The notes beneath the pieces were generated by a model. The model made no database searches. It saw only the letters and a list, made by a program, of their open reading frames with translations, and was not told the origin of the DNA. The position numbers and the translations under genes were made by a program. DNA of 64,000 nt from Pseudomonadota bacterium (GTDB lineage: Bacteria > Desulfobacterota > Desulfobacteria > Desulfobacterales > JBDRRP01), in NCBI GenBank assembly GCA_043825735.1, contig JBDRRP010000112.1, positions 1-64,000 on the forward strand. Reading direction: 5' to 3'. Below are positions 7,249-54,110 of the stretch, piece by piece; the stretch's first letter is position 1; every line of letters begins with the position of its first letter.

Positions 7249-7264
7249 ATTAAGGAGGCATGCT

Positions 7265-8473: not shown

Positions 8474-8548
8474 AAACATCAAAATATTCTCATTAGCCGT
8501 TTGAAGTATTCGATATGCCATCACGCGCAAACCTGAAAGGAGGGTGTC

Positions 8549-36612: not shown

Positions 36613-36687
36613 TGGTGGGCGATACTGGGATTGAACCAGTGACTTCTACCGTGTGAAGGTAGCACTCTCCCGCTGAGTTAATCGCCC
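36613..36687 (-). tRNA. tRNA-Val (anticodon CAC)
   Basis: GGGCGATTAACTCAGCGGGAGAGTGCTACCTTCACACGGTAGAAGTCACTGGTTCAATCCCAGTATCGCCCACCA folds as a cloverleaf with encoded CCA. Confidence 0.97.
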
Positions 36688-36929
36688 GAACGATTTGTAA
36701 TCGTAGCTAAAACGAAAACGGTACCGCGCTTCAAGTGGGACCCATTTAACGCAAGTGGGTTCATTTTCTTTGTGTTTGGGTGTTTAGCAGAAAATGGAGA
36801 CTCCGTAAAGTCCTAATTTCCATATCTAACTATAAGTAATTAAACAGATATCTGGAAAAATCGCATTCCCGGATCTCTCCGCACGGTATCCTTGATAGCC
36901 CTGAAAAAAGCCGGATTCCTGATTATGCA

Positions 36930-37931: not shown

Positions 37932-37958
37932 TATTCGCCCTCCTTTGAGGCTAAAACC

Positions 37959-38786
37959 TCATGTCGTGCGGATGCGAACATACAGATCCTTCTGCCCTGA
38001 GGATGGCAACTTTCTTTCTTCGAATTCGAAGAGGTCATTCAGGGCCTTTACAAGATCGCTCAGCTTCCTGTAGCCGTAATTACGGGAATCGAAGTCAGAC
38101 CGTAGCTTCGTCAGATAACTTCCAAACGCCCCGAGATGAGCCCAGCCGCTATCATCGCACGCTTGCTCAAAGGCCTGCCTGAAAAATTCCCTTGGTATCT
38201 CTTTGGAGGTCTTACCGCCTTGTTTTGCCGATTCTTGCATGGCAACTGAACTGCATTTAGGGGATGTTTTTTTAGCCGGTGGTATTGCATTACCAACAGT
38301 ATGAGTCGGGCTGGGCCTCAGGACTTCCGTAAAAACGAACTTGTGACATGCATTTCGAAAAGCTTCGGGTGTCTTTTCTTCTCCAAAACCATATACCATT
38401 AATCCTTCTTCGCGAATTCTGAGTGCAAGTCCAGTGAAATCACTGTCACTTGAGACTAAACAGAACCCGTCAAAGCGCCTGGTATATAAGAGGTCCATTG
38501 CGTCAATGATCAATGTACTATCTGTAGCATTTTTCCCCTTGGTATATGCAAATTGCTGAACCGGCTTGATAGCGAATTGGTGCAGGCACTTTTTCCACTG
38601 CGCACTGGTTGACGCAGTGAAGTCGCCATAGATTCGTTTGACAGTCGCTTCGCCCAAGAGCGCAATTTCGGCCAATAAAGCTTCAATGACTGAAGGTTGG
38701 GCGTTATCAGCATCAATGAGAACAGCGAGTCTCTGGGTTGCATGTTCAGCTTCAATCTTCGCGATAAGTTTTGAATTGACAGGCAA
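37959..38786 (-). CDS. NYN (PIN-like) domain nuclease with C-terminal OST-HTH/LOTUS
   Basis: LIDADN, IYGDF, KNATD, SSDSDF and FDSRNYGYRKLSDL motifs. Confidence 0.9.
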   Translation of the reverse strand: MPVNSKLIAKIEAEHATQRLAVLIDADNAQPSVIEALLAEIALLGEATVKRIYGDFTASTSAQWKKCLHQFAIKPVQQFAYTKGKNATDSTLIIDAMDLLYTRRFDGFCLVSSDSDFTGLALRIREEGLMVYGFGEEKTPEAFRNACHKFVFTEVLRPSPTHTVGNAIPPAKKTSPKCSSVAMQESAKQGGKTSKEIPREFFRQAFEQACDDSGWAHLGAFGSYLTKLRSDFDSRNYGYRKLSDLVKALNDLFEFEERKLPSSGQKDLYVRIRTT

Positions 38787-38885
38787 AATAGTTCCCTTTT
38801 TTATAGGTGAATAGAACGACTTAAGGATGCTAATTATGTGATATAAACTTGATACTTTAGGGGCGCCACTATCTCTACACAGTTA

Positions 38886-39638
38886 TCAACTATTTCGTAG
38901 ATTCTTTAGTAAATTGTTCAGAATGTGTTTCATCTCAATTGCCTCGAAATTATCAAGATGATCGTTTTCAAGGACTTTTTTTGTATGTATGTACATGTCT
39001 TGATGTCTCGCCGCAATCTCTTTGTGATCTTCAAGCCAATAAAGAAGTTCATATGCCTCTTTATAATTCACTTCATCATCAGCAAGGATGCCCAAAATTA
39101 TCCCCTTGAATTCTGATGCTTCATCCGAAATTACCTTAAAAGTCTCACTTTCCTCATGTTCCATCAGTTTCAGAAATATTCTGGCACAAGCCATGGAATC
39201 TTCAGTGGCATCGTGGTGTTTAAAGGCTGGCAAGCCAAAGTGTTTCACTAAAGTCTTCAATTTGCAATTTTGTAAATTCGGTACTTTTTCTTTTGCCACT
39301 GCACTTGAATCTGTATATTGAAAGCTCAGACCTAAACCAAAATGGTCTGAAAGTGCATTCAAAACCTGCTTGTCAAATAGACTATGTGCTACCAAAGGAT
39401 ATTCAAATATGCCTTGTATCTCTGGAAACAATTCCCCAAAATCAGGCTTATCGAAAGTATGCTCTTCTTTAATACCGTGTATTTTCGACTGAAATGGTGC
39501 GTGTCCTCCAACTGGTTTAATCAAATAGCCTTTTGTTTCAATAATTTCGCAATTTCGTACTTTAGCGTAACCGAGAGAGCAGGCGCTAACTCTTTGAGGA
39601 TTTGCTGTTTCAAAATCAATTGCGATGAATTCTTGCAT
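38886..39638 (-). CDS. DEDDh 3'-5' exonuclease (DnaQ-like) with a TerB-like C-terminal extension
   Basis: IDFETAN, VAH..FD and HHDATED motifs; tail GILADDEVN..E..L..WL; AGGAG RBS. Confidence 0.85.
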   Translation of the reverse strand: MQEFIAIDFETANPQRVSACSLGYAKVRNCEIIETKGYLIKPVGGHAPFQSKIHGIKEEHTFDKPDFGELFPEIQGIFEYPLVAHSLFDKQVLNALSDHFGLGLSFQYTDSSAVAKEKVPNLQNCKLKTLVKHFGLPAFKHHDATEDSMACARIFLKLMEHEESETFKVISDEASEFKGIILGILADDEVNYKEAYELLYWLEDHKEIAARHQDMYIHTKKVLENDHLDNFEAIEMKHILNNLLKNLRNS

Positions 39639-39737
39639 TATTGCTCCTAATTTTTTACAGGATGTCAATGTGTAGATCTGACCCCAATCATTCTGCGAGT
39701 CGCTTAATTTGGGTATTACTATAGTATGCGAGTGAAA

Positions 39738-41543
39738 CTATGCGTAGTAATCACCGAACCTATGTCGGATATGCCTATGTATCTTAGGTAAGTTTTTATC
39801 TTCACGGATAAATTTTAATCCTGCCAATTTTCCCTTTTTCCATACCACGGAAGCAGTCGTAATTACATTTTGGATTTTTAGGCGTACCACTTCCCCAATA
39901 TCTGGGATATATTTGCCGTTTACCATCACTCCGGATCTAGATATATTTTTTATTACAAAATCCACTTGTTCACCGTTAAACTCTCCAGCTATCTTAGCTA
40001 TTAAACTCTTCCTTGGAGCTTTCCGTGCAGCAAACGAAAGCTGCTTTCTTATTATACTTTGAATGCTGTATGTTATAATGAATCCAATCAATAAGCCATT
40101 TAATGCTCCGTAGCCAACACTTGTCAATATTTTTGCAATATTATCCACTGCAAAACCTGAAAATGAAATTTGAATCAGCAAGCTAAAAACTGATTGGATT
40201 GCTGAATTTATAAGCCCCATCCTCAGGGCATATTTAAATACACCTATTTTGCTTGTTTGAGACAAATCAGACAAACTGGCAACTACAAAATAGGCAACAA
40301 CCCCAAATGATAGGACCATAGGTATATGCCCTGTCTTAACTTCTCTTGTGAAAAAGTAGTATGAATATGCACCAAAAGTCGATAAAACTATTGCAACTAA
40401 ATAGGTAACTGTGCTTGGGTCATCCTCAACATCATGTGAGATGCTCTCAATAATATACCCAAAGAATATAGATACAATATAACATATAGTGCTACCAATA
40501 ACCCAACTCCATAATCTACTGCTTACAAGCCATCTATCACCTGAATAAACAGGCACGCCAAAAATATCTCGTGCAAATAGAAACAATGCCACGCTAATAA
40601 ATGATGCGATAAATACTCCAACAATAATTTGGAATAGTGGTTGAACGAATTTGATTCTAAAATTATCTAAATAGATTGGCGCGAATCCATATTTCGAAAG
40701 CACGTAGTAGCGCTTCTCGTTTGTTGTGTATTGTCGAACGGTCACTTTGCATATACATTCATATATAAATGTTATAAGTTTATCGATTTCTTGATCCCTA
40801 TCAGAATAAATATCTGGGGTGTCAAATTTGCTAATTGACGGCATCTCATTAGCTCTTCTATATAGCCAGTTTTTCCTATCATTAAGATCAGCCATATTTT
40901 TGCTTTGACATCCGATATTATCTAAAACATTTATTAAATATAGAGCTTTTAAAATTTTATAATCTAATGCTAAAGTGACCCACTTAAAGCTATCATCTGC
41001 CAATTTTTGTTTAACCTCGGCATGCTTCATTCGCCAAAAATGAGAAGGGCACTTATCTATCAAGTTTTTAAAAACTTCTTCAAAGCAAAATTCAGTAGGC
41101 TCAAAGCGCCTTATATTGCCAATTAAGTGACGTTTTAAATCCTCAACTTCTCTCGGTATTCTCGCAAATTCTAATAATTTGCTCCGCAAACGGGTATCAT
41201 AATCCTTCACTTTTTCATGACTCATTATAAGAATTATAAATATTGAAACAAAAGTGAAACTCCCTTCCTCAAAGACATTTAAAAACTCATTATGAGCCCC
41301 GAAAATTGACGTTAGAATTTCCCAAGAATTTATTGTTGAACTGAAACTTAATATTGACACTATTATGCTATAAATTGATAAATATAAAAAGAAATACTTA
41401 TAATAACGAAAAGTGTCAATGTATTCTTTAGGCGAACCATTGAACTTAAAATGGTCAGTTTTAGGCCATTGATTGAACTTAGGCCCGAAGAAGATAAATA
41501 TTAGTGCAAGGCCTATCAAAACATTAATTATCCCCCCGATCAT
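39738..41543 (-). CDS. Multi-TM membrane protein with C-terminal PilZ domain
   Basis: Many hydrophobic segments; RKAPR and NISRSG PilZ motifs; very AT-rich DNA. Confidence 0.8.
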   Translation of the reverse strand: MIGGIINVLIGLALIFIFFGPKFNQWPKTDHFKFNGSPKEYIDTFRYYKYFFLYLSIYSIIVSILSFSSTINSWEILTSIFGAHNEFLNVFEEGSFTFVSIFIILIMSHEKVKDYDTRLRSKLLEFARIPREVEDLKRHLIGNIRRFEPTEFCFEEVFKNLIDKCPSHFWRMKHAEVKQKLADDSFKWVTLALDYKILKALYLINVLDNIGCQSKNMADLNDRKNWLYRRANEMPSISKFDTPDIYSDRDQEIDKLITFIYECICKVTVRQYTTNEKRYYVLSKYGFAPIYLDNFRIKFVQPLFQIIVGVFIASFISVALFLFARDIFGVPVYSGDRWLVSSRLWSWVIGSTICYIVSIFFGYIIESISHDVEDDPSTVTYLVAIVLSTFGAYSYYFFTREVKTGHIPMVLSFGVVAYFVVASLSDLSQTSKIGVFKYALRMGLINSAIQSVFSLLIQISFSGFAVDNIAKILTSVGYGALNGLLIGFIITYSIQSIIRKQLSFAARKAPRKSLIAKIAGEFNGEQVDFVIKNISRSGVMVNGKYIPDIGEVVRLKIQNVITTASVVWKKGKLAGLKFIREDKNLPKIHRHIRHRFGDYYA

Positions 41544-41773
41544 TTTATCCCCCTTTATTTCCAACATATAGAGAACATCACGATTATATTGTAGCGGTGA
41601 GATTACGTTTATCGCCAAGAACTTGCTTTAGTGCCGCCAGGTCACCAATCCGTGTTACCGCACTGTCAAAAATAGAAACGAAGCATTCCCGAGCTTCTTC
41701 CAGGTAAAAACCACCCTATCTCAATCTTGAAACCAGCATTTTCCAAGAATGACATCCCAGTAGGTGTTTAGAT

Positions 41774-41900
41774 GGACTCCATGAATAAATAGCAAACTTC
41801 TATTTTTCCAGAATATATATTGCCTTTTTGATAATCATGATATTTCCAATTTGAATTATGTGGTTCGAATTAATAGAAATTTATTTATTCATGGAGGTCC
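41774..41900. mobile_element. ~125-bp MITE-like element
   Basis: Perfect 15-bp inverted repeat CTCCATGAATAAATA (41777-41791 and 41882-41896). Confidence 0.55.
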
Positions 41901-42125
41901 CTAACACCCCCTTTTCAATGATGGATAAGCCGACGTCAGTCTAATCCTGTCTAATTCATCATGAAGACTATTTTCCAAGTTCCTCTATTCAACCTGATAC
42001 ACCGACAATTGCATAATGATAGGCGTTGTCCACGGGGCACCGGGGCAAACCTGAAAGGATCATTGCCGTGGAATGACTGCCAGAATAACCGTATTGAAAA
42101 GTCAAGAATTGGAACGGTATTCTTG
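41900..42125. repeat. Conserved non-coding element, copy 1
   Basis: TTCCTCTATTCA..CAATTGCA.AATGATAGGCGTTGTCC..TGAAAGG..GGAATGACTG shared with 53851-54085. Confidence 0.8.
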
Positions 42126-42206
42126 ATTTTACCGGGGTCAGCGGAGATTGCACATAGGATAATTATTGTTGATTCATGACAGTTTGAAAAATAGGAAAAT
42201 AAGAAA

Positions 42207-42245
42207 GAGCACCTGAATTTAACAATAGCGGATTTCAGGTGCTCA
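42207..42245. terminator. Hairpin, probable terminator of the minus-strand module
   Basis: GAGCACCTGAA..TTCAGGTGCTC with an adjacent purine tract (U-tract on the minus strand). Confidence 0.6.
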
Positions 42246-42266
42246 CAAAATTAAGTGACGTTGACA

Positions 42267-42395
42267 TCAATCCTTCTTTTCTTTTTTTTTCTCCTCTTCC
42301 AAAACAACTTTTCGGTCACAGAGATCACATTTTCCATCCTCTGTGATGCACGGCTGTTTTGGGGCTTCACCCCCGCAAATTCCGCATTTTGGCAT
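42267..42395 (-). CDS. Unannotated 42-aa Cys-rich protein (MPKCGICGGEAPKQPCITEDGKCDLCDRKVVLEEEKKKEKKD)
   Basis: Strong GAGGAGGTGA RBS; CxxC..C..CxxC. Confidence 0.75.
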   Translation of the reverse strand: MPKCGICGGEAPKQPCITEDGKCDLCDRKVVLEEEKKKEKKD

Positions 42396-42474
42396 AGGAA
42401 TCACCTCCTCTCCAGTGCTGGTCCGCGTTTTGGGTTGGGTTAAGGGTGCGCCGGTTCAGAAAGCACACCCCGGA

Positions 42475-42580
42475 TTACGTTATTATTTCGGATTGATCCT
42501 TGCCGACGCCGCACACTGGACATTCCCAGTCCTCAGGCAGCTCTTCAAAAGGTGTACCGGGCGAAATTCCGCTATCCAGG
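42475..42580 (-). pseudogene. Rubredoxin remnant (C-terminal half)
   Basis: [29 protein letters not shown]-terminal CxxC missing and an in-frame stop upstream. Confidence 0.8.
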
Positions 42581-42658
42581 TTCCGTGACCTTCAGAAAAT
42601 AGCTCATTGTTTCGATCTCCAGTTTTGGCATAGAGAGTGCGTCTCTTTTTGGACGGAG

Positions 42659-43312
42659 TTACATCATCACTTGCTTTTGAATCCGAGCACTGATCTCCTG
42701 ACCCAACACCTTGGCTCGTTCCCAGGTTTCCGTCTGATCTTCCACTTTACAGAATTTTTCGGGTGTTACCTTGGTATCTTCCCCGAAAATCCACGGTAGC
42801 GCACTCATCGGACAGGTTTCACCAAATCCGCACACCATGCATTCGGGATTGCCGGTTACCTTTAGCTGGTCCAGCACCTCCATTCCTTCGAGAGTCAAGG
42901 CGTGGGCGATCTGGTTGCTTGCCTCCTCCAAGCCTGGGGCTCCGCGCCCAATGCCGGTAGTCACGACAACTGCCAGTTTGCCTCTGTTTAGACCGTTTTG
43001 GTGCCGAAGTGAAAACAGCCGTTCCAGAAATGCCTTGGTAAATCCATCGATTGCACCGTAAGGTGAATATCCGCCGACTACAACAGCACCGGCGTGGCGG
43101 ACTTTCTCGGCCAATTCTTGAAAATCGTCCTTGGGCTTGCAGATGTTGTCCTTTTTGCATCCAAGGCAAGCGATGCAGGGGCGTACATTGATTTTGCTGA
43201 GTTTGACAAACTCTGATTTTAGATCGCTGCTTTCAAGTACAGCTTGAACCAAACGGTCTGTGTTACTATTTTTGATCGGGCTGCCTGAGACTCCAATTAC
43301 TTGAGGTTGCAT
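42659..43312 (-). CDS. Flavodoxin-like iron-sulfur flavoprotein (Isf / FMN reductase family)
   Basis: GVSGSP..SNT and CIACLGC-x5-C..DD motifs; AAGGAG RBS. Confidence 0.85.
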   Translation of the reverse strand: MQPQVIGVSGSPIKNSNTDRLVQAVLESSDLKSEFVKLSKINVRPCIACLGCKKDNICKPKDDFQELAEKVRHAGAVVVGGYSPYGAIDGFTKAFLERLFSLRHQNGLNRGKLAVVVTTGIGRGAPGLEEASNQIAHALTLEGMEVLDQLKVTGNPECMVCGFGETCPMSALPWIFGEDTKVTPEKFCKVEDQTETWERAKVLGQEISARIQKQVMM

Positions 43313-43367
43313 GATTGTCTCCTTTTTTGATTTTTGAACCACTATATCCAGCATTTATCAGGCTGTC

Positions 43368-43383
43368 TGTAGCAACTGTTACA
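43368..43383. promoter_or_regulatory. Crp/Fnr-family operator (GTA-N8-TAC)
   Basis: TGTAGCAACTGTTACA upstream of the Isf gene; near-identical copy at 44274. Confidence 0.7.
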
Positions 43384-43493
43384 GGAAAGAAAAATTCAGA
43401 TGGCGGAATAAGTGGTTGAACACAGGAAAAAACTTGTCGATATCAAAAACGACAGATTGTAATTCTCAAAGGATTGAAAGGACTTAACGAGGG

Positions 43494-44198
43494 TTATGCT
43501 ATCTTCTGAGAGGGTAGGATGAGTCTCTTGCCATCATGGATAATTTTACCGGCCTCTTTCAAGGCTTTCATGGCACGCGTAATGCTAACCCGGTGTGCTC
43601 CGGTTAGGAAGCTGAGATCCTCATGTGTTAAGGGGAATTGGATTACAGCGCCCTTTGAGCTTATGGTCCCGTGCTCTTCCGCAACATTTTTAAGAACTCG
43701 GAATAGCCGGTCTTCGATATTTGTAACCGCTAAACTACCGACGCGGCTTGTCAACCAGGAGACCCTTTCGCTCAGGTTTTTTATTACCTGCAAACCGACT
43801 TTGGGATGTTTTAAAATGAGTTCTTCAAATTGTTTTCGGCTAAACCCGCATGTCAGTGTATCTTCGAGGCAGTAGGCACTTACCGGATATTCGCCTTCAT
43901 CAGAAAACATGTTTTCGCCGACGAAATCTCCAGCCTTGCGAATATCAAGAGTCAATTCTGTGCCGTCTTCATGAACTTTGGAGAGTTTAATGCGACCACC
44001 TTTAATTAGAAACATCTCATCAGCAGAATCACCCTGTAAAAAAAGGGATTCCCCTTTATTCGATTTTTTCCTAAATGCTTCATTACTTAGAGCTTCAACC
44101 TCTTCTGGGTCAAGATTTTGGAAGATCCAAAGGTGTCCGATGCATGTCGGGGACAATTCAATACTATCCCCGGCGATCTGTTCACATAGGCAAGCCAT
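43494..44198 (-). CDS. Crp/Fnr family regulator (HcpR-like) with N-terminal Cys residues
   Basis: cNMP-like domain; HTH LTHEDLSFLTGAHRVSITR; MACLC..C. Confidence 0.9.
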   Translation of the reverse strand: MACLCEQIAGDSIELSPTCIGHLWIFQNLDPEEVEALSNEAFRKKSNKGESLFLQGDSADEMFLIKGGRIKLSKVHEDGTELTLDIRKAGDFVGENMFSDEGEYPVSAYCLEDTLTCGFSRKQFEELILKHPKVGLQVIKNLSERVSWLTSRVGSLAVTNIEDRLFRVLKNVAEEHGTISSKGAVIQFPLTHEDLSFLTGAHRVSITRAMKALKEAGKIIHDGKRLILPSQKIA

Positions 44199-44273
44199 TT
44201 TCCCTCGCAATACAGAATATTTTCAATAGTGCTCCGATTTATTCAAACAATATCGTATAGCAAAAGAATTGTC

Positions 44274-44289
44274 TGTAGCAACTGATACA
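44274..44289. promoter_or_regulatory. Crp/Fnr-family operator (GTA-N8-TAC), probably autoregulatory
   Basis: TGTAGCAACTGATACA upstream of the regulator gene. Confidence 0.7.
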
Positions 44290-44656
44290 AATCGATCACA
44301 TAAAATCAACCATCCTTGCATTATCCTTGAGGGCTGCAAGGCTCAAGGGTTCCGATGGTATTCATAACAATGACAGGGTTTGGCCAGCGGTGGTCGGAGG
44401 CTAATTTAATGTTGTATTTCAAGATATGTGATGATGGTTGCTGAGCGCAATCAGAAAATGAAGTTCGGAAGTAGGATTTGAAGAATGGTGCCAACAAACC
44501 TCGGTTCGGTTGGCTGCACAGGGTGGCCGCACAATGTTTGCCATCCTCGCTAATATTCCGGAATCATATGGATTTTGCACCTTGAAACAGGTATTATGGT
44601 CTTAACAGGCCTGAGCGCCTGATGTCAAAACTTTTCAAAGCCGAAAGGAGGCTGCC

Positions 44657-45489
44657 ATGAGAGTTTCAGAGGCAATCGACCGTTACATGGATTATCAGCG
44701 GCTCAATTCTGGAAAAAAATGCGGTCAAGAACAATGAACTGTATCTTGGCAAGTTCGGTGAACGTTACGGGGGCCATGAGATCGAGGCCGTTTCACCGGA
44801 CGACATCCTGGCCTTTCTGACCGCCGTCACCGAAGGCCTGAAACGATCCACCAAGCGTTACAAGTACACCCTCCTCAAATCGTTTTTCAATTTCATCAGA
44901 AACAACATCCAGCGCGATCTTTATAATCCCTGCGACACTCCGCTGCTCAGAAAAACGTTCCGCCCCTCCAAAGGCCGGCACTGGACCATCCTGGAAAAGG
45001 ATGTGGTCGATGAGATCATTTTCCGTACCGACAACGTCCGGAACCGGATCATGCTGGAACTGATGGCCAGGGGCGGCATGCGTATCGGTGAGGTGCTGAA
45101 ATTGAAAGTGGAGGATGCCGACGACCGGAAGCTGCGCCTCATCAGGCCCAAGAGCGGGAAAAGTTCGGAGGTCGTGTTCATCCCGCAGAAGGTGGCGGAT
45201 CGGTTGAAACGGTATATCCGCGACAAAGGGCTTTCCCATGATGAACGGATTTTCCAGATTCAATACACGGCTGCCCGTGAAGTGGTCAGGAAAGCCGGAT
45301 TGAAGGTCGGTATCCATCTGAGGCCCCACGATCTCAGGCGCCATGCAGCCACTTATGCATCCCGTGCCGGCGCTCCCTTAGAGATCGTCAGCAAGGTGAT
45401 CCTACGACATGCGAACCTATCCACGACCCAGCGATATCTCGGTCAGCGACAAAGAGGCCATTCGGTGGGTTGAGACCATCTATGGATAA
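44657..45489 (+). pseudogene. Tyrosine recombinase/integrase with a +1 frameshift at A7 (44713-44719) and a second shift near the C-terminus
   Basis: AAAGGAGG RBS + MRVSEAIDRY..; the shifted frame has GMRIGE, HDLRRH, LRHANL and TQRY; tail VSDKEAIRWVETIYG* is in another frame. Confidence 0.8.
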
Positions 45490-45496
45490 AACCCGA

Positions 45497-45530
45497 AGCC
45501 GGGGATGGGATAGTCCCGGCCCCGGCTTTT
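45497..45530 (+). terminator. Terminator after the integrase
   Basis: AAGCCGGGG..CCCCGGCTTTT. Confidence 0.7.
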
Positions 45531-45575
45531 AAATGGTATTGCTCGGTTTTATGCTGACAGGAATACTGCCTTTCC

Positions 45576-45680
45576 ATAGGCGGAGTCTGCTGGTCTTTCA
45601 ACCAGATTTGAAAGGAATATTTCCAAGGAATGATTGCCGAAAATGGCTGTATTGCACCGTCATAATTGGGTAAGTATTGT
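45576..45680. repeat. Conserved non-coding element, copy 2 (3' part)
   Basis: ATAGGCG..GCTGGTC.TTCA.CCAGATTTGAAAGG..GGAATGA.TG.CGAAAATG.CTGTATTG matches 53984-54065. Confidence 0.8.
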
Positions 45681-45895
45681 TGAATTTTTCAGGGTCAACA
45701 ACAATCCAACATAGGATAATTATCCTTGAAAAAGATTTCTCCCACCGTCTAAGATTTCCCTGATGTTGCAGCCAATTCAGAAATGCTGAATGGTTTCTGG
45801 ATAAAACCATTGCATCCCTATGGGTTCTCTCCTTAGTATCCCTTCTTTCCTTCCAAAAATCTCACGATGAATTACCAATCACTGAATATAGGTTC

Positions 45896-46231
45896 TTATG
45901 TAGAAAATGTTTCAGATAATCCTGTTTCCCATTCAATATCACAATTTTGACAGTAATAATTAATTGGATCACCGTCCTTTCTAAATTTAATTGTTGGTTC
46001 TGATATTTTTTTTCTACAATTTGGGCATATAAATGATTTTAAACGTTTTTTTTGCCAAATAGTTCCCAAGATGGATACTATAATAAGTAAAGTCACCAGC
46101 GTCATTGTAATGAAAGAATTTTTACCGCTAAAAAAAACGATGAGACCAAACATGAAAATTACTGGTACTACTATATATATTTCTTTTTTTGTGTACTTAT
46201 CTCCGAATTCTCTATATGGCAATTTCCTCAA
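45896..46231 (-). CDS. Small AT-rich membrane protein with a C4 zinc ribbon (cassette-like)
   Basis: Two TM segments; CPNC..CQNC. Confidence 0.65.
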   Translation of the reverse strand: MRKLPYREFGDKYTKKEIYIVVPVIFMFGLIVFFSGKNSFITMTLVTLLIIVSILGTIWQKKRLKSFICPNCRKKISEPTIKFRKDGDPINYYCQNCDIEWETGLSETFST

Positions 46232-46265
46232 TTTTTTTCCCTATGGTGCATATAATTATGTGTGA

Positions 46266-46319
46266 AAAGTAACTATCAGCGGTGTGGATTTTTGCGTCTG
46301 TTGTATTTTTTTGTTAAAC
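46266..46319 (-). other. Degenerate attC-like site
   Basis: Minus strand GTTTAAC-AAAAAAATACAACAGACGCAAAAATCCACACCGCTGAT-AGTTAC, between two cassette-sized ORFs. Confidence 0.45.
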
Positions 46320-46355
46320 TTTTTATTATTCTTCCCGACGCACTCACTCCAGACT

Positions 46356-46804
46356 TTATACCGTATATGGACCATTCTTAGGCTTTTTATGGAAGACTGC
46401 ATGGAGAGGGTTCTCCGGATCAATCCACAGGGTGCAATTTCCATTCTTATCAATTCTTTGATCAAGGTAACGATCCACCCCTTCTTTTGTATTGAAGGCG
46501 ACCATTTTAAAAATAATTGGTGTAACTTGGTAAGAACGACTTTCAAATTCAAAGTTACACAAAATTCTAGGCTTCCAAAATGTACTTTTTATTAAACTTT
46601 TAACAGAATCTGGGTCAACAAAATCACGAGTTTCTCTATCTACGCAAACAGCCTTAACAGCGACGAAACGTGCGTAAAGGGAATGCCCTGATGTATATCG
46701 GCTGGACAGAAGTAAGACCAAGCCAATAACCATTATGGCAATGCTGCCCCTAATGGGAAAATCTGGTTTTGACAATAATATTAGGCCTCCGAAGAAACAT
46801 AAAC
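46356..46804 (-). pseudogene. Membrane-anchored hypothetical protein, 5'-truncated at the IS end
   Basis: The frame continues upstream (GLCFFGGLILLSKP) to a TAA at the IS1595 IR junction. Confidence 0.55.
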
Positions 46805-46806
46805 CT

Positions 46807-47269
46807 TACTATAACCCAAACTCAGGCTGACGTGTGACCGCATCTGTCACACCTGTATGTTAAGGTCCTTCCAAACACCATAATAGGGGAGGACATAATG
46901 CATATAGACCAACTTAAAGAGCACTTTCCCGACGAGTTAGCCTGTCGGCGGTTTTTTGAAAATTGGATATGGGCAACAGGGCGCCGATGCCCTCGTTGTA
47001 AATCTGATCGTTCATACAGGCTGACCGGCAGAGTCGGGCTGTATGAATTTTCGTTGGACCCACAGGGAAGGCAAAGAGATGAGAACCAAAAAAGGAAAGC
47101 TCAAAATAAAATGGACCCCTCTGCCTTTCCTGAAACTGTCTGCGTACCTACTGTCGAATGCATTTGGACATCGATTAAAAAGATCAAGCAATGGCGGCCT
47201 GGTAGAGTTCGTCAGGCCATATGACTCTGCAGCAACTTATCGGGCAGTGCCTGAGTTTGGGTTATAGTA
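46807..47269 (+). mobile_element. Internally deleted IS1595-family element
   Basis: Perfect 21-bp TIR TACTATAACCCAAACTCAGGC; transposase zinc-ribbon N-terminus FPDELACRRFFE..W..CPRC at 46898. Confidence 0.85.
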
Positions 47270-48136
47270 CTGTATATCAATATCTGGATATAATTTTTTT
47301 GCACAATCCGGACAAATGCTATGGGTGAATTCAGCATCTGAACGAGATTTGATATAGGATTCGATTTGATTCCAATAGCCTTGATCGTCACGTATTTTTT
47401 TGCATGCTGCGCAAATAGGGAGCAACCCGCCCAGAGTTTTAACCTCGCGTAGTGCATCTTTTAGCTCAACGATCAGTTTTTCTTTTTCGATCTGGGCGAT
47501 TTTACGTTCTTCAATTTCGATTTTGAGTTCCTCCTTTTGTAACCTCAATCGTAGTCTGAGATTGGAGACGAATCCACCGAAAAAGGCAAACCAAGTTAGC
47601 AAGATACCGAACAGAATGAAAAGGAATAGCTGGTATTTAAGAATAAACCCTTGACGACCCTGGAGGTACTCCAAGCCCAAGAGCGCTGCGTAAAGGCCCA
47701 GCACGCAGGCTACCACAACAAGATACTGTCGAAGCGTCAGGCTCAACACTCCGAAGCTGAATGGAGGAAGGAAAAACAGCAATATAATCGGACGTGCATC
47801 TGGTAACCAGTACATCACCAGACAAGCATAAAAAAAGGAATAGATAATCTGTTCCTGAGTCAAAGATTGTTCCGAAAAGCGTAAATTCACCCTTGTGGAA
47901 AAAAGTACCAAGAACACGCTGATACCAAATAGGCACAGTCCAATAAGCGTTGTCCATTGGGTAACGTTCAAATCACCAATCCCAAGGAGTGTGATCAGAT
48001 ACGTTGCCAGGAGCGCAACAGCATATGTAGCTACGGACATGCCGAACCTACGCAAACGTAGTTGCTGCGCTTTTTTGGTGAGGTCATTTATTGATTTGAC
48101 CTTATCACATGAAACATTAGACATATTTACATTCAT
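47237..48136 (-). CDS. Membrane sensor (MASE2-like TM region) fused to a Cys-rich GLLPIC..CKKIRD..W..E.Y..HSICP.C domain
   Basis: ORF translation; start uncertain; the stop codon lies inside the IS end. Confidence 0.7.
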   Translation of the reverse strand: MNVNMSNVSCDKVKSINDLTKKAQQLRLRRFGMSVATYAVALLATYLITLLGIGDLNVTQWTTLIGLCLFGISVFLVLFSTRVNLRFSEQSLTQEQIIYSFFYACLVMYWLPDARPIILLFFLPPFSFGVLSLTLRQYLVVVACVLGLYAALLGLEYLQGRQGFILKYQLFLFILFGILLTWFAFFGGFVSNLRLRLRLQKEELKIEIEERKIAQIEKEKLIVELKDALREVKTLGGLLPICAACKKIRDDQGYWNQIESYIKSRSDAEFTHSICPDCAKKLYPDIDIQYYNPNSGTAR

Positions 48137-48314
48137 AGACTGTCCGATAGAATTACATTGTTTTTGGGCACAACAATGTTTAGATAGTTTCTCTATAACA
48201 CCCCTGATCGTCACGATCGCGTCATAACACCCTACGCATGAAGTCATCAAAATATATATGATTACAATGTTTTAGATAAAACCTTCCGGATATTTAGAGG
48301 TATATATGGTTTCT

Positions 48315-48505
48315 GCATAACACCCCGCCCCTACAGGCCTCCTCAGGACTCTTGACTGCCTTACCGCCCTTTTTCGAGACATGGATAAAATCATCATAGC
48401 TGATCAAATTCTCGGATAGAAGGGGGCCTGTTCTAACCGAGCACTGTTTGCCACATTCCTCTACTCAACCTGATGCACTTCCAATTGCAGAATGATAAGC
48501 GCCCC
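48315..48505. repeat. Conserved non-coding element, copy 3 (5' part)
   Basis: ATAACACCCC..ACATGGATAA..GAGCACT..TTCCTCTACTCAACCTGATGCAC..CCAATTGCAGAATGATAAGCG. Confidence 0.7.
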
Positions 48506-49044
48506 AGGTCTCGCCGGTGATAGAAGCGGTGCGTTTTAAAGTCGTGAGACTTTGGAGTGACAGGAGACAACCATTGAGGAGGTTTACTGATTCGGAGGAA
48601 GAGGCAGAGGATGAAGAAGTGGCGGAAGTTTTGGAATAGATCAGATAGCCCGGCAAGGCGGCGACCGATATCAGGAGAAAGGTGGATATCCGTTTTAACC
48701 TCCTCAGTCACGATATGGTTTCAGGCGGATCCGTATTTTTGACGAGCGCCTGTTTCAGTTTGGCATTCAGGTCATCTCCTCCCGTCTCCCGCTTCCGATA
48801 ACGATTTCGGAATTCCCGTCACCCGGTCATTTATATGGATTGCTAATATGTATTTGCGAAATGCGAAAAAAAATCAAGAGATTTTAGCGGTAATTATGAT
48901 TTTCCGTCAAATATCGCCAAATGCCGGTTGCCAAATATAGGAGCGGGCCATGCCCGCGAACGGTGTTTGGGCCTTTATCATTTCGACAACACCCGTGATC
49001 GGCCGTGGCGGTCTATCAGCGGTCTGCTACAGCCGCAGGTCCGG

Positions 49045-49392
49045 CTACGCCGCATGTAATAAAAACTCAACTTTGACAGCCTCGAATGGGAAAACGATAC
49101 GCTTATCTTCGTTGCGAATGAGTATTCCGGCATTTAGAAGTGCGGTTACGTCATTGTGAACAGCCTTTACATCACGTCCAACACGCCGCGCAGTTTCGCG
49201 GATTGATATAGGGCCTGCTCCGCAGAGGACTTTAAGCAACTCCCAGCGCTTTTCGGTTAATACCCTCCAAAGCAATTCAGTAGACGCAAAGGATATGCGT
49301 GCGGACTTTTGGGATTTGCCTGATTTCCATGCGCGGGAGAAATCCGCCATCGAATCGCCAGGGTCACGTACATCAAGGGTTACTATTTTCAT
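49045..49392 (-). CDS. HTH antitoxin-like regulator (HVO_A0114-like)
   Basis: LTEKRWELL..GPISIRETARRVGRDVKAVHNDV. Confidence 0.8.
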   Translation of the reverse strand: MKIVTLDVRDPGDSMADFSRAWKSGKSQKSARISFASTELLWRVLTEKRWELLKVLCGAGPISIRETARRVGRDVKAVHNDVTALLNAGILIRNEDKRIVFPFEAVKVEFLLHAA

Positions 49393-49669
49393 GATTCCAC
49401 CTCCCGATTTCGTCCTGGAAGTCAGCGATCAACTGTTCCGGTGTCGTGAATGGGTAGGCACTTTCGTTTCCATCGAAATGCCGATGATCACCTTTACCGG
49501 TCTCATTGTCATACCGTATTACACATTCACCACGCACAACATATGCAAGCCTGTATTTGAACTGGTGTAAAGATCCACTCAAGGGCTTTGAGAGCCGCCA
49601 CAATACCAACTCTGCAAATTTCGATTCTGAATAGATGATGCGAGTATTGATTAGTTCAACGGCCTTCAT
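49373..49669 (-). CDS. DUF6516 / TumE-like toxin
   Basis: KYRLAY..IRYDNE.GKGDHRH..YPF...EQLIADF; overlaps the partner gene. Confidence 0.75.
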   Translation of the reverse strand: MKAVELINTRIIYSESKFAELVLWRLSKPLSGSLHQFKYRLAYVVRGECVIRYDNETGKGDHRHFDGNESAYPFTTPEQLIADFQDEIGRWNHENSNP

Positions 49670-50097
49670 GTTGGTCAAATTAACAACACCTGGGGCTGTT
49701 GTCAATAACTCCAACACTTTAGGGGTCGGGCGCCCTGTCATATGCCTTGACAAGATTATTGTCGAGCTGAAAACGTACGAGTATTGGGGATGCCCTTAAA
49801 ATATGGAATTCACAGCATGAAGTTAAAATTTAAAGGGCACCCAAGAACCCACGCAGAGGATGGCCATCAGCACCAGCCACCGGGCTTTGCGGGGTGCGAC
49901 CGGCACGCGGTCTTTTCCTTCCATCTCAGGCGCGTCGTCTCGACGATGGCAGCCGGGTGTAGTATCCTGCCTGCAGGGATTTTTGGTATCCTGTCTTACG
50001 AGGGCGGCGGCGGCCTGATGCCGCCACCTGCCACCGTTACGGACGGGGCGCCGCCACGACAACCAGACCAACCCGCCAATAAAGGTACGGAGACCCG

Positions 50098-50919
50098 ATG
50101 ACCGCAACGGAAACCAAAGACCTCTACCAGGAGCTTGGCGTGGAGAAAAACGCCCCCGCTACACAGATCAAGGCGGCCTACCGGCAGCTGGCCCTGCTAT
50201 ACCACCCGGATCGAAACCGTGACAACCCCGAAGCGATGGAAAAGATGCAGGCGGTCAACGAGGCCTACGCGGTGTTGTCGAACCCAGAAAAACGCCGGGA
50301 ATACGACGTCATGCGCGACCGGTTCGGGTCGTCGGCCTACAACCGTTTCCGGCAGACCTACTCCGAGGAGGACATATTCAAGGGATCGGACATCTTCCAT
50401 GTCTTCGAGGAGATGGCCCGGTCATCCGGGCTGCGGGGGGTCGACGAGATTTTCAAGGACCTGGGCGAGGGGGCGTTCTACCGCGGCTTCGAGTACCGGC
50501 GGCCCGGCATCCACGCCCGCGGTTTTTTCTTCAAGATCGGCGGTCGGCCGGGCCGTGGGCGGGCCTCGCTGCCCCGGCAGGGCTCACGCTTTACTAAACT
50601 GGGCAGGAAGGTAATGGGAAAACTCGGCGGCGTCGATTTCGCCGAAGACGGGAAAAACCTCCACGACACGATCCGGGTGGCCGTCGATCTGGCTGCAACG
50701 GGCGGCCCCTACGCCTACGATCACCGGCAAAGGGGCAAGAAGATCGTCGTGAAAACCCCGCCCGGCATCCGCTCCGGCCAGAAGATCCGCCTTGCCGGCT
50801 TGGGCGCGGAAGGAAAAGGCGGCGGAAAGCCCGGAGACCTTCTGCTCCAGGTGAAGGTGAAAAAACCGCTCTTTGCGTCGTTGAAGGACGCGGTGGCCCG
50901 GATGATGCCCAGCAAATGA
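50098..50919 (+). CDS. J-domain protein with C-terminal DnaJ_C (CbpA-like)
   Basis: YHPDRN, EAYAVLSNPEKR and G.KIRL.G.G..GG.PGDL motifs. Confidence 0.9.
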   Translation: MTATETKDLYQELGVEKNAPATQIKAAYRQLALLYHPDRNRDNPEAMEKMQAVNEAYAVLSNPEKRREYDVMRDRFGSSAYNRFRQTYSEEDIFKGSDIFHVFEEMARSSGLRGVDEIFKDLGEGAFYRGFEYRRPGIHARGFFFKIGGRPGRGRASLPRQGSRFTKLGRKVMGKLGGVDFAEDGKNLHDTIRVAVDLAATGGPYAYDHRQRGKKIVVKTPPGIRSGQKIRLAGLGAEGKGGGKPGDLLLQVKVKKPLFASLKDAVARMMPSK

Positions 50920-51014
50920 AAAATTGTTTTTGGATTGCAGACAATCCTTTCCGTCGCGTTCACTAACCAGCTCCGCACGCCACGGCATCCCACAACGTCA
51001 ACACACGAGGGGGA

Positions 51015-51707
51015 ATGATGAATCGCAGACGCTTTCTCACCGTTTCGGCCCAGTTCGGCGGCTTGATGATGCTTCACATGGCGGGCGTCGGGTGCCAGTC
51101 CGGGACGCCCGACCCGCCGCTGAAACTCGCCCCGCTGCCTTACCCCAAGAATGCATTGGCCCCATTCATCTCCGAAATCACCGTCGATATTCACTACGGC
51201 AAGCATCAGGCCGGCTACCTGGCGCGCACCAACCGTATGTTGTCTGGCGCACGAAGCGGGGGGGTGACGCTGCCCGGCGTGGTCGCCACAGCACGGTCCA
51301 CCGGCGACACGGCATTGTTCAACAACGCCGCCCAGGCCCTCAACCACGAGTTGTATTGGCGCAGTATGACCCCCGGCGGCGGCGGTGCGCCCTACGGCGC
51401 TATCGCTGATCGCATCGAAAAAGACCTGGGTGGGTACCGGCGGTTCCGCAGCGCGGTGACCAGCGCCGCTGATGAACAGTTTGGCAGCGGCTGGGTCTGG
51501 CTGGTGGATACCCCTGAGGGGCTGCGGGTTACGAAAACATCCAATGCCGACACCCCGGTGGCCGATGGCGTCACGGTGCTGATGGCCCTTGACGTCTGGG
51601 AGCACGCCTACTACCTCGACTACCAGAACCGCCGGAGGGACTATGTGGAGGTGTTTCTGGACAATCTCGTCAACTGGGAGTTTGCCGGGCAGCAGTTGCA
51701 GGGGTGA
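51015..51707 (+). CDS. sodB: Fe-type superoxide dismutase with a Tat signal peptide
   Basis: NRRRFL; HYGKH, NNAAQ..NH, FGSGW and DVWEHAYY motifs. Confidence 0.9.
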   Translation: MMNRRRFLTVSAQFGGLMMLHMAGVGCQSGTPDPPLKLAPLPYPKNALAPFISEITVDIHYGKHQAGYLARTNRMLSGARSGGVTLPGVVATARSTGDTALFNNAAQALNHELYWRSMTPGGGGAPYGAIADRIEKDLGGYRRFRSAVTSAADEQFGSGWVWLVDTPEGLRVTKTSNADTPVADGVTVLMALDVWEHAYYLDYQNRRRDYVEVFLDNLVNWEFAGQQLQG

Positions 51708-51850
51708 TGGCGGAAACGGCGCTCAAAGGGGCGGTTGGGGAAAGCGCCCCTGCCCCCCGGTTTCCATGTCCGATGTATTTTTAAACGTCGAAATCGCCTC
51801 GTATGGCGCACTCATGCCGTCGAAAGCCAGTTCTATTCCCGGCCCTTATT

Positions 51851-52906
51851 TTACAGGTTGTCCGGATTGATACCGATCGCCTCCATGCGCGCTCTCCAGC
51901 GTCTGCGCGCCAGGGCCTGCATATCTTCGGTGGTATCCAGTTCATCGGTGATCTCGAGACCGATGAGCGTTTCGACGACATCCTCGAGCGTGACGATGCC
52001 TTGAACGGCACCGTATTCGTCGACCACCAGTGCGATGTGGCTTTTTTCGTGCAGTAGCCGGTCGAAAACCGTCGAAGCCGTCAGCATGTCCGTAAACACC
52101 AGAAAATCCCGCCGCAATTCGGAAAGTGTCTGATCGAACTGGTCCTTGGCCTGGGCGATCATAAGATCGATTCTGAGCACATACCCCGAGACATCGTCGG
52201 GTTGGCCGCTGTGAATGGGAATCCTGGAAAACGGTTTCAATCCGTGATCCTTGAAGAAATCCCCCACGCACATCGTCTCCGGAACGGTAAAAACAACGGT
52301 CCTCGGTGTCATGATATCGCGCACCGACAACTGGTTCAGCCGCAATAAATTGGTCACGATTCTCTGCTCTTTGATCTCCAACATGCCTTCTTTGGCACCG
52401 ATCTCGGCCATGGCGGCCATTTCATCCCGGGTGAACGTGTAGGCACTCGCCCCCGTGCGGGACAGCAGCCTTGTCAGTCTTTCGGACAGCCAGACAAAGG
52501 GGAACAAAATGCGGGTCAACCCACTGATAACCAATGCAAAAACCGGCGCCAGCGACCGCCAGTAGGTCGCACCCAGTGTTTTGGGAATGATTTCGGAAAA
52601 GACCAGAATGAGGAAAGTCAAGACCGCCGAGGTGATACCCAAATACGCGCTGCCGAACACTACGGTCGCTTGTGCCCCGACACCCGCTGCCCCCACCGTG
52701 TGAGCGATGGTATTGGCCGTCAGTATGGCGGCGAGCGGCCGGTCGAGATTATCATGCAGGCGCTTCAGGGTCTTAGCCCCCTTCTTGTTGTTGCGCCGAA
52801 GCGCTGCGATGTAGGAGGGGCGTACCGAAAGAATGATGGCCTCCGAAATTGAGCAGAAAAACGAAACACCCAGTGCCAGTAGCAGGAAAAATATCAGGAG
52901 CGCCAT
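51851..52906 (-). CDS. CNNM/CorC (DUF21 + CBS) metal transport protein
   Basis: SEIIPKT, DIMTPR, SRIP and VVDEYG..TLEDVVE motifs. Confidence 0.9.
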   Translation of the reverse strand: MALLIFFLLLALGVSFFCSISEAIILSVRPSYIAALRRNNKKGAKTLKRLHDNLDRPLAAILTANTIAHTVGAAGVGAQATVVFGSAYLGITSAVLTFLILVFSEIIPKTLGATYWRSLAPVFALVISGLTRILFPFVWLSERLTRLLSRTGASAYTFTRDEMAAMAEIGAKEGMLEIKEQRIVTNLLRLNQLSVRDIMTPRTVVFTVPETMCVGDFFKDHGLKPFSRIPIHSGQPDDVSGYVLRIDLMIAQAKDQFDQTLSELRRDFLVFTDMLTASTVFDRLLHEKSHIALVVDEYGAVQGIVTLEDVVETLIGLEITDELDTTEDMQALARRRWRARMEAIGINPDNL

Positions 52907-53404
52907 TATTCACTCATGGAAAGTAGGTTCGGGGTAGGCATTGCTAACGGGATCGCCTACAAGTTGACATGAAAAACAGGTTGTGTCTTTCCACGATATT
53001 CCAGCGGCACTGTTTTAACCACGAAGATCACCGAGGACACAACGCGTTGAAACGGGTCACGCCGTCAGCCACGATACTGCCGCCTCAACCTGGTTTTTGG
53101 TGAAGTAATCGCTCGTGGGGCCGTCGAAAAGAGAAGCGATATAGATAAGAACTTGCTTTTCAGCATTCCGTTTCCCCCGTCGCTTGAATTGTGTCTGGTG
53201 ATTTTCGGCGCCACAAGATATGGGCGCCTCGTTGGATCGATCCATCATCCAGAATTTACACCGCCCTGTCAATATGGGAAATCGGCCCGCTCAGCCATGG
53301 TCGGGGCTGTTTTAGGAGGGGATCAACGCAAACGGATCGGGTGGCCATCCACGGAACTCAACTGGAAAACCACTCGACGGGTAGACGGGTTTTTCAAATC
53401 GAAG

Positions 53405-53717
53405 AATATTTGCCAACGGTACTATCTACCATCTTAAGGTGGCTATGATTTACTAGTTGCGCCGTGGGGTTTCTTTTTTCGATGCCGACGGCCGATGATG
53501 TGGGCGCTGCCCGAGGGCCGGCCGCCACCGGCAAACCGGACCCGGCGCAACAGCAGCGGTGCCAGTGGCTCACGGCGCGCGTCCATCTCCTCAGACAATT
53601 TTGTCATGAATCTGCGCCGGCGTGATCATGAGCGGCGATATTTCGGCGGCATCGAAAAAAGAAACCCCGCGGCGCCGCTCGACCTTACTATGGTAGATAG
53701 TGCCGTTTGCCAATATT
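53405..53717. mobile_element. 313-bp element with long bipartite inverted repeats
   Basis: 53405-53439 pairs with 53683-53717 and 53459-53487 pairs with 53647-53675. Confidence 0.7.
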
Positions 53718-53843
53718 GCCATGGCACCGATTCCCGCATCCTCGTAGTCCCGAAAGTACGATAAAGAACGGAAAAGGATTTCGCCACTTATATACAAAAG
53801 CCTCAGCGCACTCAGGGCTCAGATATCGAAATAGTCTCGGCAT
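53718..53843 (-). pseudogene. 5' fragment of a cassette-like gene (MPRLFRYL..GEILFRSLSYFRDYED)
   Basis: ATG just after GTTAGGT; frameshifted and cut by the IR element. Confidence 0.45.
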
Positions 53844-53850
53844 TGCTAAA

Positions 53851-54085
53851 CCTAACATTCATATTGAATAGACGTCTCGTTCGACATGGATAAGACAGAC
53901 CCCAGCCTAATCCAGTTTCTCCTATATGAGCACTATTTCCCATTTTCCTCTATTCAGTCTGATGCACCACCAATTGCAGAATGATAGGCGTTGTCCGCTG
54001 GTCATTCACCCAGATTTGAAAGGCTTATATCCGAGGAATGACTGTCGAAAATGACTGTATTGGACTGCCAATGATTGGATCGTTG
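53851..54085. repeat. Conserved non-coding element, copy 4 (most complete)
   Basis: Aligns by eye with copies 1-3; begins ACCTAAC (GTTAGGT on the minus strand). Confidence 0.8.
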
Positions 54086-54110
54086 AGGTTGTTTTATTCA
54101 AGAGACCAGT

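What the first reader, a model, noticed from the sequence alone, without database searches (positions are those of the whole stretch)
41900..54085. Non-IntI tyrosine recombinase with four copies of a non-coding element ending in integron-core-like GTT motifs next to cassette-like genes
Seen: a ~100-250 bp non-coding sequence recurs in the same orientation at 41900-42125, 45576-45680, 48315-48505 and 53851-54085 (core TTCCTCTATTCA..CAATTGCAGAATGATAGGCG..TGAAAGG..GGAATGACTG). Three copies begin with YTAAC, which reads GTTAGGT, GTTAGGG or GTTATGC on the minus strand. At 53850-53856 GTTAGGT is followed within 6 nt by an ATG, the layout of an integron cassette start. The intact cargo genes in 36930-49669 are on the minus strand, opposite the recombinase. 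Copy 1 and the recombinase bracket the Crp-Isf-rubredoxin module. Known: integron core sites are GTTRRRY and IntI has an insertion before the HxxR box; I see no such insertion here. Inference: this is a lineage-specific gene-capture or mobile system in which a compact recombinase uses the element as an att site or structured RNA/ssDNA, or it targets attC/attI cores.
Basis: partly seen in the sequence, partly recalled or inferred. Interest (0 to 1): 0.8.

Follow-up and report, generated by a model that had tools for sequence, protein, structure and literature searches.

The report
Two-site cassette arrays with recoded recombinase
The repeats are joints of a gene-cassette array in which two different 7-base sites alternate, and a small recombinase gene, interrupted by a conserved frameshift and sitting between the two sites, likely swaps the cassettes, which would be a gene-shuffling system of sulfate-reducing bacteria and their kin that is separate from integrons.

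Summary
The repeat is real but is not one element in four copies. It is a set of modules joined at two 7-nt cores, L (TTTGCCA) and R (ATAGGCG). In this genome 42 of 45 neighbouring sites alternate, and similarity between copies breaks at the cores. L-to-R pieces are the recombinase gene or a 55-nt stub. R-to-L pieces are 1-8 kb cargo, 57 of 64 ORFs on the opposite strand. Homologues across Desulfobacterota show the same layout with their own cores, and one 3,593-nt R-to-L unit sits 98.5% identical between different neighbours in two records. The 278-aa Xer-like enzyme lacks the IntI insertion. In 80 of 109 intact homologues it needs a +1 shift near codon 20, 77 of them on a run of seven or more A's. 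The window copy also lost 5 nt near its end; an intact copy lies on another contig. The GTT motifs mark one cassette-end type that elsewhere holds true attC cassettes, likely IntI guests. Best reading: natural two-site cassette exchange (0.6), untested at the bench. The scan noted this system twice before on other DNA. I found no paper describing it.

The parts
41899..41970 (+). A0-type cassette end (variant); GTTAGGG on the minus strand at its left edge
41971..42025 (+). Stub M: L core (TTTTCCA, 41971-41977) to R core (ATAGGCG, 42019-42025), 55 nt
42026..42175 (+). B, conserved left end of a cargo cassette (17 hits in the genome)
42267..44210 (-). Cargo: 45-aa Cys-rich ORF (42267-42404, no Pfam hit), FMN_red flavoprotein (42659-43354), Crp-family regulator (43494-44210)
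   Evidence: found in 30 other genomes of 400, none of 14 loci checked has B or U
44300..44536 (+). U, conserved right end of the cargo cassette (13 hits in the genome)
44537..44543 (+). L core TTTGCCA at the left end of the recombinase module
   Evidence: contigs of other samples start aligning exactly at 44537
44657..45489 (+). Xer-like tyrosine recombinase gene: 26-aa first frame, +1 shift at A7 (44713-44719), body from 44715; 5-nt deletion near 45441 replaces the last 17 residues
45490..45582 (+). D: GC-rich hairpin after the stop, then R core ATAGGCG (45576-45582)
45583..45729 (+).
45896..48250 (-). Cargo 2: three ORFs without Pfam hits, a decayed attC-like stretch (about 46250-46325, judged by eye) and an IS1595 remnant (46799-47277)
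48315..48446 (+). Diverged A0-like cassette end with GTTATGC on the minus strand
48447..48501 (+). Stub M: L core TTTGCCA (48447-48453) to variant R core ATAAGCG (48495-48501)
48502..48897 (+). X, a flank that follows the variant core in all three places where stub M ends in it
53850..53935 (+). A0 cassette end with GTTAGGT at its left edge and a 22-nt near-palindrome inside; attI-like (inferred)
53936..53990 (+). Stub M: L core TTTCCCA (53936-53942) to R core ATAGGCG (53984-53990)
53991..54102 (+). Truncated B

Best explanation
The region is part of a cassette array built from two alternating 7-nt sites, L and R, and the Xer-like recombinase encoded between an L and an R likely recombines L only with L and R only with R, which would swap, excise or add whole cassettes. 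Shown: the two cores, their alternation, the breaks at the cores, two kinds of module (L-to-R linker holding the recombinase gene or a stub; R-to-L cargo on the opposite strand), and an identical cargo unit between different neighbours. Inferred: one enzyme binds both sites through shared flanking arms, and the differing cores act as non-interchangeable overlaps, as with Cre and mismatched lox spacers (recalled). One crossover pair would release a linker-plus-cargo circle (3,557 nt between the R cores at 42019 and 45576); two pairs would exchange a cassette. Full-length enzyme would be made only rarely, by slippage on the A-run, most likely transcriptional. The window copy is probably impaired and would be served by the intact copy on contig C80. 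A0-type cassettes likely carry an attI-like site that the host's IntI fills with ordinary attC cassettes.
For: Alternation in this genome: 42 of 45 adjacent pairs, 25 of 27 for what follows an R; label shuffles mean 28, maximum 39 in 5000. Pairs of sites sharing only one flank lose identity right after the core or gain it at the core and its arm. Flanks mix freely: U, A0 and others precede M or the recombinase module; B, attC or X follow M, D or others. A0 joins the recombinase module directly in L200. None of 9 full-end U copies abuts any of 15 full-start B copies; the two nearest pairs are 198 and 1056 nt apart with a linker between. Pooled L and R flanks are most symmetric exactly about the core (cosine 0.73 own, 0.83 family; best of 42 centres), and the left arms of L and R match in register (0.55). 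Family: CTTGCCA within one mismatch in 57 of 100 and ATAGCAG in 49 of 103 elements, against 7 and 10 in shuffles. 73 extra same-strand sites against 14 opposite and 5 in reversed sequence, with 93-94-nt L-to-R stubs. 45 of 59 cargo ORFs lie on the opposite strand. L052 and L150 share a 3,593-nt unit, 98.5% identical from the first base of R to the last of L, with different linkers on both sides. Frameshift. attC cassettes inside A0 units in four loci; two genes over the IntI cut-off in the genome.
Against: No reaction, circle or emptied site was seen; the one joint that skips 3,557 nt is explained by the paralogous copy at 53934-54102. Symmetry within a single site class is modest (0.31-0.38) and other centres score as high or higher in three of four sets, so the arm geometry is not settled. 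At stricter thresholds alternation in family loci weakens (52:21, 34:20, 22:16), which missed sites could cause. The L-to-R half of the alternation count is partly built in, because stubs were defined by both cores, and six sites were added by hand. Only one clean moved cargo unit was found among 186 loci. B and U are narrow in range (B in 4 of 151 genomes, one of them, G083, without a recombinase match). Only 13 of 56 family loci repeat their flanks by BLAST, and attC follows R in only 2 of 41 family elements. How cargo first gets between R and L is unexplained for B-U cassettes.
Confidence: 0.6

Rival explanations
1. The L-to-R module is a one-gene tyrosine-recombinase transposon (about 1.05 kb, with 55-240-nt non-autonomous derivatives) that excises at the outer edges of its ends, as Tn916 does (recalled), and inserts repeatedly at preferred targets. 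The arrays are piles of insertions, and cargo moves only as a composite or by homologous recombination between stubs.
For: The element's ends are strongly conserved and its outer flanks weakly. L039 and L040 are about 100% identical with unrelated flanks starting at the cores. The 5 nt outside the two ends are related but identical in only 1 of 30 elements. TAGCA and TGCCA are near-inverted in the family. IS1202-family elements show that site-targeted insertion can give same-orientation series (PMC10132070, passages).
Against: No empty targets. Conserved 150-230-nt cargo ends break at the cores. The arm inside the stub before R equals the arm outside L. M plus X stays together across three different left flanks. 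The L052/L150 cargo would need four independent insertions exactly at its two ends.
Confidence: 0.25
2. The arrays are mostly relics: decayed ends of a once-active element scattered among integron cassettes and islands, shuffled by RecA and deletion, with no ongoing capture function.
For: Only one of the genome's recombinase copies is intact apart from the shift; many linkers are internally deleted, and G018 has only broken copies. Some cores are degenerate.
Against: 109 of 123 distinct homologues are intact and show a coding pattern on both sides of the shift. Exchanges join modules that share only the 7-nt core and its arm, too little for RecA (general knowledge). The moved unit is 98.5% identical, so the move is recent.
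Confidence: 0.1
3. One reading: the repeat is a structured RNA or ssDNA site, or the enzyme recombines at the GTT cores like an IntI.
For: A0 begins at YTAAC in 6 of 7 copies here and in L200. True attC sites lie 10-17 nt from R in several loci. A0 holds a 22-nt palindrome.
Against: B has no conserved fold (-1.8 kcal/mol) and no Rfam match. The enzyme lacks the IntI insertion and scores 42-43 bits against a cut-off of 265. Most junctions have no GTT, and the genome has its own IntI genes.
Confidence: 0.05

Closest known systems
Integrons (IntI, attI, attC cassette arrays)
   Same: Same-orientation arrays of cargo units, a dedicated tyrosine recombinase on the strand opposite the cargo, and some true attC cassettes nested inside.
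   Different: No IntI insertion (I2 domain, PMC4792948 passages; alignment). The sites are unstructured, of two kinds, and alternate. The enzyme gene is itself one exchangeable module and is frameshifted.
pdif / dif modules of Acinetobacter plasmids (XerC/XerD)
   Same: Cargo modules bounded by short Xer-type sites and shuffled between replicons (PMC10132070 and PMC9771954, passages).
   Different: pdif sites are inversely oriented pairs of one XerC-6 nt-XerD site served by host enzymes. Here there are two different cores, a self-encoded enzyme, and chromosomal arrays; no plasmid or phage record matched.
Xer-type simple tyrosine recombinases (archaeal XerA, PDB 4A8E and 5HXY)
   Same: Core-binding plus catalytic domain only, with the RKHRH-Y residues; best hits by sequence and fold.
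   Different: Below every curated cut-off (117 against 220 bits for XerA). Patchy and often multicopy: 38 of 151 genomes of the order match, absent from the same-genus genome. I could not place it in any of the simple subgroups described in PMC8138268 (section 7 read; their profiles were not run).
Recombinase-mediated cassette exchange with heterospecific lox or FRT sites (engineered; recalled)
   Same: One recombinase and two non-interchangeable spacers flanking a cassette is the logic proposed here.
   Different: It is a laboratory design; the search for a natural case returned only engineering and structural papers (listing only).
Frameshifted IS transposases (IS1, IS3, IS5, IS630)
   Same: A-run slippage keeps a mobility enzyme scarce; mixed +1 and -1 direction points to transcriptional realignment (PMC3711429, passages).
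   Different: Here the enzyme is a tyrosine recombinase and the shift falls after only about 20 codons. 'Integrase' and 'recombinase' do not occur in the main text of PMC3711429 or in the first 300,000 of 449,034 characters of PMC5009743.

Membership tests
Tyrosine recombinase (simple, CB + CAT) | R-K-H-R-H-Y catalytic set and Phage_integrase domain | tested here: met
   PF00589 E 3e-22; residues in alignments; fold search hits XerA, Cre, IntI4
Integron | IntI-specific insertion before the HxxR box; TIGR02249 above cut-off | tested here: not met
   Gaps opposite the genome's own IntI; 42-43 bits against 265
Integron | attC hairpins (RYYYAAC...GTTRRRY) at the repeats | tested here: not met
   The four repeats have no paired R''/R' boxes and B has no conserved fold; attC sites occur only as neighbours in other loci
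Integron | attI site recombined by IntI (for segment A0) | tested here: inconclusive
   Four A0 units read GTT-gene(s)-attC-like-GTTACAA or similar (the fourth, C90, is decayed); A0's end resembles the stretch after the C64 intI by eye; no attI model was run
pdif modules | Inversely oriented XerC/XerD dif-like sites, 11 + 6 + 11 nt | tested here: not met
   Site consensus shows 7-nt cores of two kinds and no dif arms by inspection
XerC / XerD / XerA / XerS | Curated NCBIfam score | tested here: not met
   All below cut-off
Tn916-like or other tyrosine-recombinase transposon | Excision of the end-to-end unit with variable coupling sequences, leaving empty targets | tested here: inconclusive
   Variable 5-nt flanks fit; no empty U-B target and no R-L junction in element context found; a circle cannot be excluded from assemblies
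Programmed frameshift or transcriptional slippage gene | Conserved frame break at a slippery run with coding constraint on both sides | tested here: met
   82 of 85 shifted against 2 of 24 in-frame intact genes have A>=7; third-position excess on both sides and no conserved internal start; spread over the tree
Programmed frameshift or transcriptional slippage gene | Full-length product or altered mRNA shown | not testable with these tools
   Needs reporter, RNA reads or proteomics
Structured non-coding RNA | Conserved fold with covariation; Rfam match | tested here: not met
   (B, plus strand only; M, U and A0 were not folded as alignments)
tRNA-targeting integrative element | Duplicated tRNA end at the far boundary | tested here: not met
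   tRNA-Val (36613-36687) has no second BLAST hit in the genome at E 1e-4; the island lies on its 5' side

The most novel reading that the evidence does not exclude
A natural recombinase-mediated cassette-exchange system, independent of integrons: one slippage-gated tyrosine recombinase works two orthogonal sites, builds alternating arrays of linkers and cargo across Desulfobacterota and neighbouring phyla, swaps its own gene in and out as a cassette, and carries mobile attI platforms that recruit IntI cassettes.
Probability: 0.45. Interest if true: 0.9.

Novelty: new variant of a known kind. Interest (0 to 1): 0.75.

Why it matters
Integrons and pdif modules are the known ways bacteria keep arrays of swappable genes. 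This would be a third, with double-stranded sites of two kinds and a self-encoded enzyme, common in sulfate reducers and related anaerobes (38 of 151 genomes of the order match the protein). Gene callers miss it because most copies look like pseudogenes. The reaction can be tested at once with a naturally in-frame homologue and two 40-nt sites. A 278-aa enzyme with a natural orthogonal site pair would also be a candidate tool for cassette exchange.

Tried and rejected
Decayed gene or IS fragment: no codon periodicity in B or U, and no frame open in more than 3 of 9 B copies; no protein-database search of the repeat was made. Structured RNA. Excision in the data: the X1 joint 42031-45589 is the paralogous copy 4, whose flanks appear as loose ends in the same table, and the joint 45565-44533 has unknown letters between and fits other genomic copies; both rejected. 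No RNA holder listed. No relative in viral contigs, plasmids or phages at the thresholds used. A fold without an alignment failed (pLDDT 42) and was repeated with 62 rows. My quick attC scan was noisy and missed sites seen by eye, so attC calls rest. The 31-nt A0 motif was not found in the family loci; its weak hits in 4 of 400 genomes were not pursued. PADLOC found no defence system in 13 cargo proteins, only generic DEDDh and HTH hits. The promoter and terminator scan gave 9 promoter-like sites against 5.1 expected and did not list the hairpin after the gene. The TTTGCCA at 53409 belongs to another palindromic repeat whose other copies do not start there, so its status is uncertain.
Full report
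1. Observation. The four stretches are similar on the same strand, and the window is contig C112 of a 6.8-Mb, 57.5% G+C genome whose recombinase relatives are mostly Desulfobacterota. An iterated profile finds 29 hits in the genome. The alignment shows two halves that meet at ATAGGCG. Copies 1 and 4 have both halves, copy 2 only the right half and copy 3 only the left. The 'rubredoxin' has no Pfam match.

2. The enzyme. The gene begins at 44657 behind a ribosome-binding site, reads 21 codons to an A7 run and continues in the +1 frame. An 88% identical copy on contig C80 has the same break and an intact end. The window copy lacks 5 nt after the catalytic Tyr; the likely source run shows no difference there, and a homologue in another run has 5 more bases. 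Of 189 loci examined, 141 gave a near-complete gene with a readable start and 123 remained after removing those 97% alike, the C80 copy included. Of these 109 are intact: 80 need +1 (77 with A>=7), 5 need -1 (all A>=7) and 24 are in frame (2 with A>=7). In 79 shifted genes both the first 18 codons and the next 20 vary most at third positions, and no internal start is conserved. On a quick tree of 110 rows the shifted state needs 10 changes and is spread throughout; kin are not independent, and single A8/A9 variants may be assembly errors. A model of an in-frame homologue (pLDDT 77.5) puts the break in the turn between helices 1 and 2 of the core-binding domain. Best matches are archaeal XerA, below cut-off. 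Mixed direction at A-runs points to transcriptional slippage (PMC3711429, passages); that paper cites runs longer than 7, so the A7 here may be weak or ribosomal.

3. The sites. In homologues a CTTGCCA lies about 90-130 nt before the start and an ATAGCAG about 90-125 nt after the stop (57 of 100 and 49 of 103 within one mismatch; shuffles 7 and 10), giving a 1,043-1,106-nt module in the 30 elements with both. In this genome the cores are TTTGCCA (L) and ATAGGCG (R). Profiles of the pieces give B 17 hits, U 13, stub M 13, D 11, A0 7 (plus one self-palindromic hit) and the gene leader 7. I listed 34 L and 35 R sites from these and a weight-matrix scan, six added by hand. Neighbours within 20 kb alternate in 42 of 45 cases (RL 25, LR 17, RR 2, LL 1; shuffles mean 28, maximum 39). 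The LR count is partly built in; the RL count is not. Pairs sharing one flank lose or gain identity at the core. Between R and the next L, 57 of 64 ORFs are on the opposite strand. Pooled flanks are most symmetric about the core, but single classes are only modestly so.

4. Beyond this genome. B occurs in 2 of 41 relatives, this genome and G018, which also has U, D and the closest, broken recombinase. It occurs in 4 of 151 genomes of the order, three of them with a recombinase match, while the protein matches 38 of 151, a few of those probably other Xer-like genes. So B and U are lineage-specific and the cores are family-wide. In 66 family loci over 8 kb there are 73 extra same-strand sites, 14 opposite and 5 in reversed sequence, with L-to-R stubs of 93-94 nt; 52 of 73 adjacent pairs alternate, fewer at stricter thresholds. 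Among 26 R-to-L units 45 of 59 ORFs are on the opposite strand. L052 and L150 share a 3,593-nt unit at 98.5% identity that runs from the first base of R to the last base of L. It lies downstream of the recombinase in one and upstream in the other, and the two recombinase modules are only 89.6% alike. It is the only such case among 186 loci.

5. The GTT. A0 starts at YTAAC in 6 of 7 copies and in L200, where it joins the recombinase module directly. Four R-to-L units read, on the minus strand, A0, GTT, gene(s), an attC-like site, GTTACAA or similar, 10-17 nt, R. The genome has two genes over the IntI cut-off. I infer that A0 is an attI-like platform filled by IntI in trans. In the window itself the genes after the GTT motifs have at most one decayed attC.

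6. Mechanism. The simplest reading of two conserved cores, alternation, free mixing of flanks, no empty U-B sites and a moved cargo unit is one recombinase acting on two non-interchangeable sites (0.6). The main rival is a one-gene transposon with stubs that piles up at preferred targets (0.25). No circle or reaction was seen; the one skipping joint is a paralogue. How B-U cassettes first gain cargo is open. The Crp-flavoprotein cargo occurs in 30 of 400 other genomes and without these ends in the 14 loci checked.

7. Prior art. Ten full-text searches listed no description of this family or layout; I saw listings only, except passages of PMC8138268 (plus section 7), PMC3711429, PMC5009743, PMC9771954, PMC10132070 and PMC4792948. 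No supplements were read, and subscription papers are not covered. Tn916 coupling sequences, heterospecific lox exchange and the role of the C-terminal helix are recalled. The scan noted this system before: e1-2378122 in another genome (recoded recombinase nested in junction repeats) and e1-8243372 on another piece of this genome. I had the frameshift and the R core before looking. These notes are leads, not support. What this report adds is the two-core alternation, the moved cassette and the nested IntI cassettes.

8. Verdict. A real and apparently undescribed cassette system, not an integron: new variant of a known kind, interest 0.75.

Noticed in passing
window 53405-53720: Nested inverted repeat of about 300 nt with two copies 95% identical and one 77% identical elsewhere in the genome; a contig of another sample joins its left flank straight to stub M.
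   Followed up: partly
window 53140-53385: A second dispersed repeat with seven further hits in the genome.
   Followed up: no
window 46799-47277: IS1595-family remnant with 29-nt terminal inverted repeats and only the zinc-ribbon part left.
   Followed up: partly
window 49045-49753: TumE-like plus HVO_A0114-like gene pair, probably a toxin-antitoxin cassette, after flank X.
   Followed up: no
window 36613-41618: tRNA-Val(CAC) followed on its 5' side by a 41% G+C block of EEP nuclease, NYN-OST-HTH, DEDDh exonuclease and a PilZ membrane protein.
   Followed up: partly
   Followed up: no
G000 C139:144283-145524 and C64:807-2051: Two 413-414-aa IntI genes with N-terminal extensions; the C139 gene has an attC-like site downstream on the same strand.
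   Followed up: partly
L110 (G000 C59) 2283-8542: Cleanest array of the genome: five stubs framing cargo next to tRNA-Phe, with attC-like sites 13-17 nt beyond four of the five R cores.
   Followed up: yes
window 42155-42175 and 44300-44330: The inner ends of B and U are short inverted repeats (AGGATAAT / ATTATCCT) facing the cargo, and a contig from another habitat holding the same cargo stops aligning at 44309: a possible third junction for cargo capture.
   Followed up: partly
L080 (relative -5048 to +7490 around the gene): An unrelated lineage has a 12-site alternating array with 93-94-nt stubs and mostly one to three genes per cassette.
   Followed up: yes
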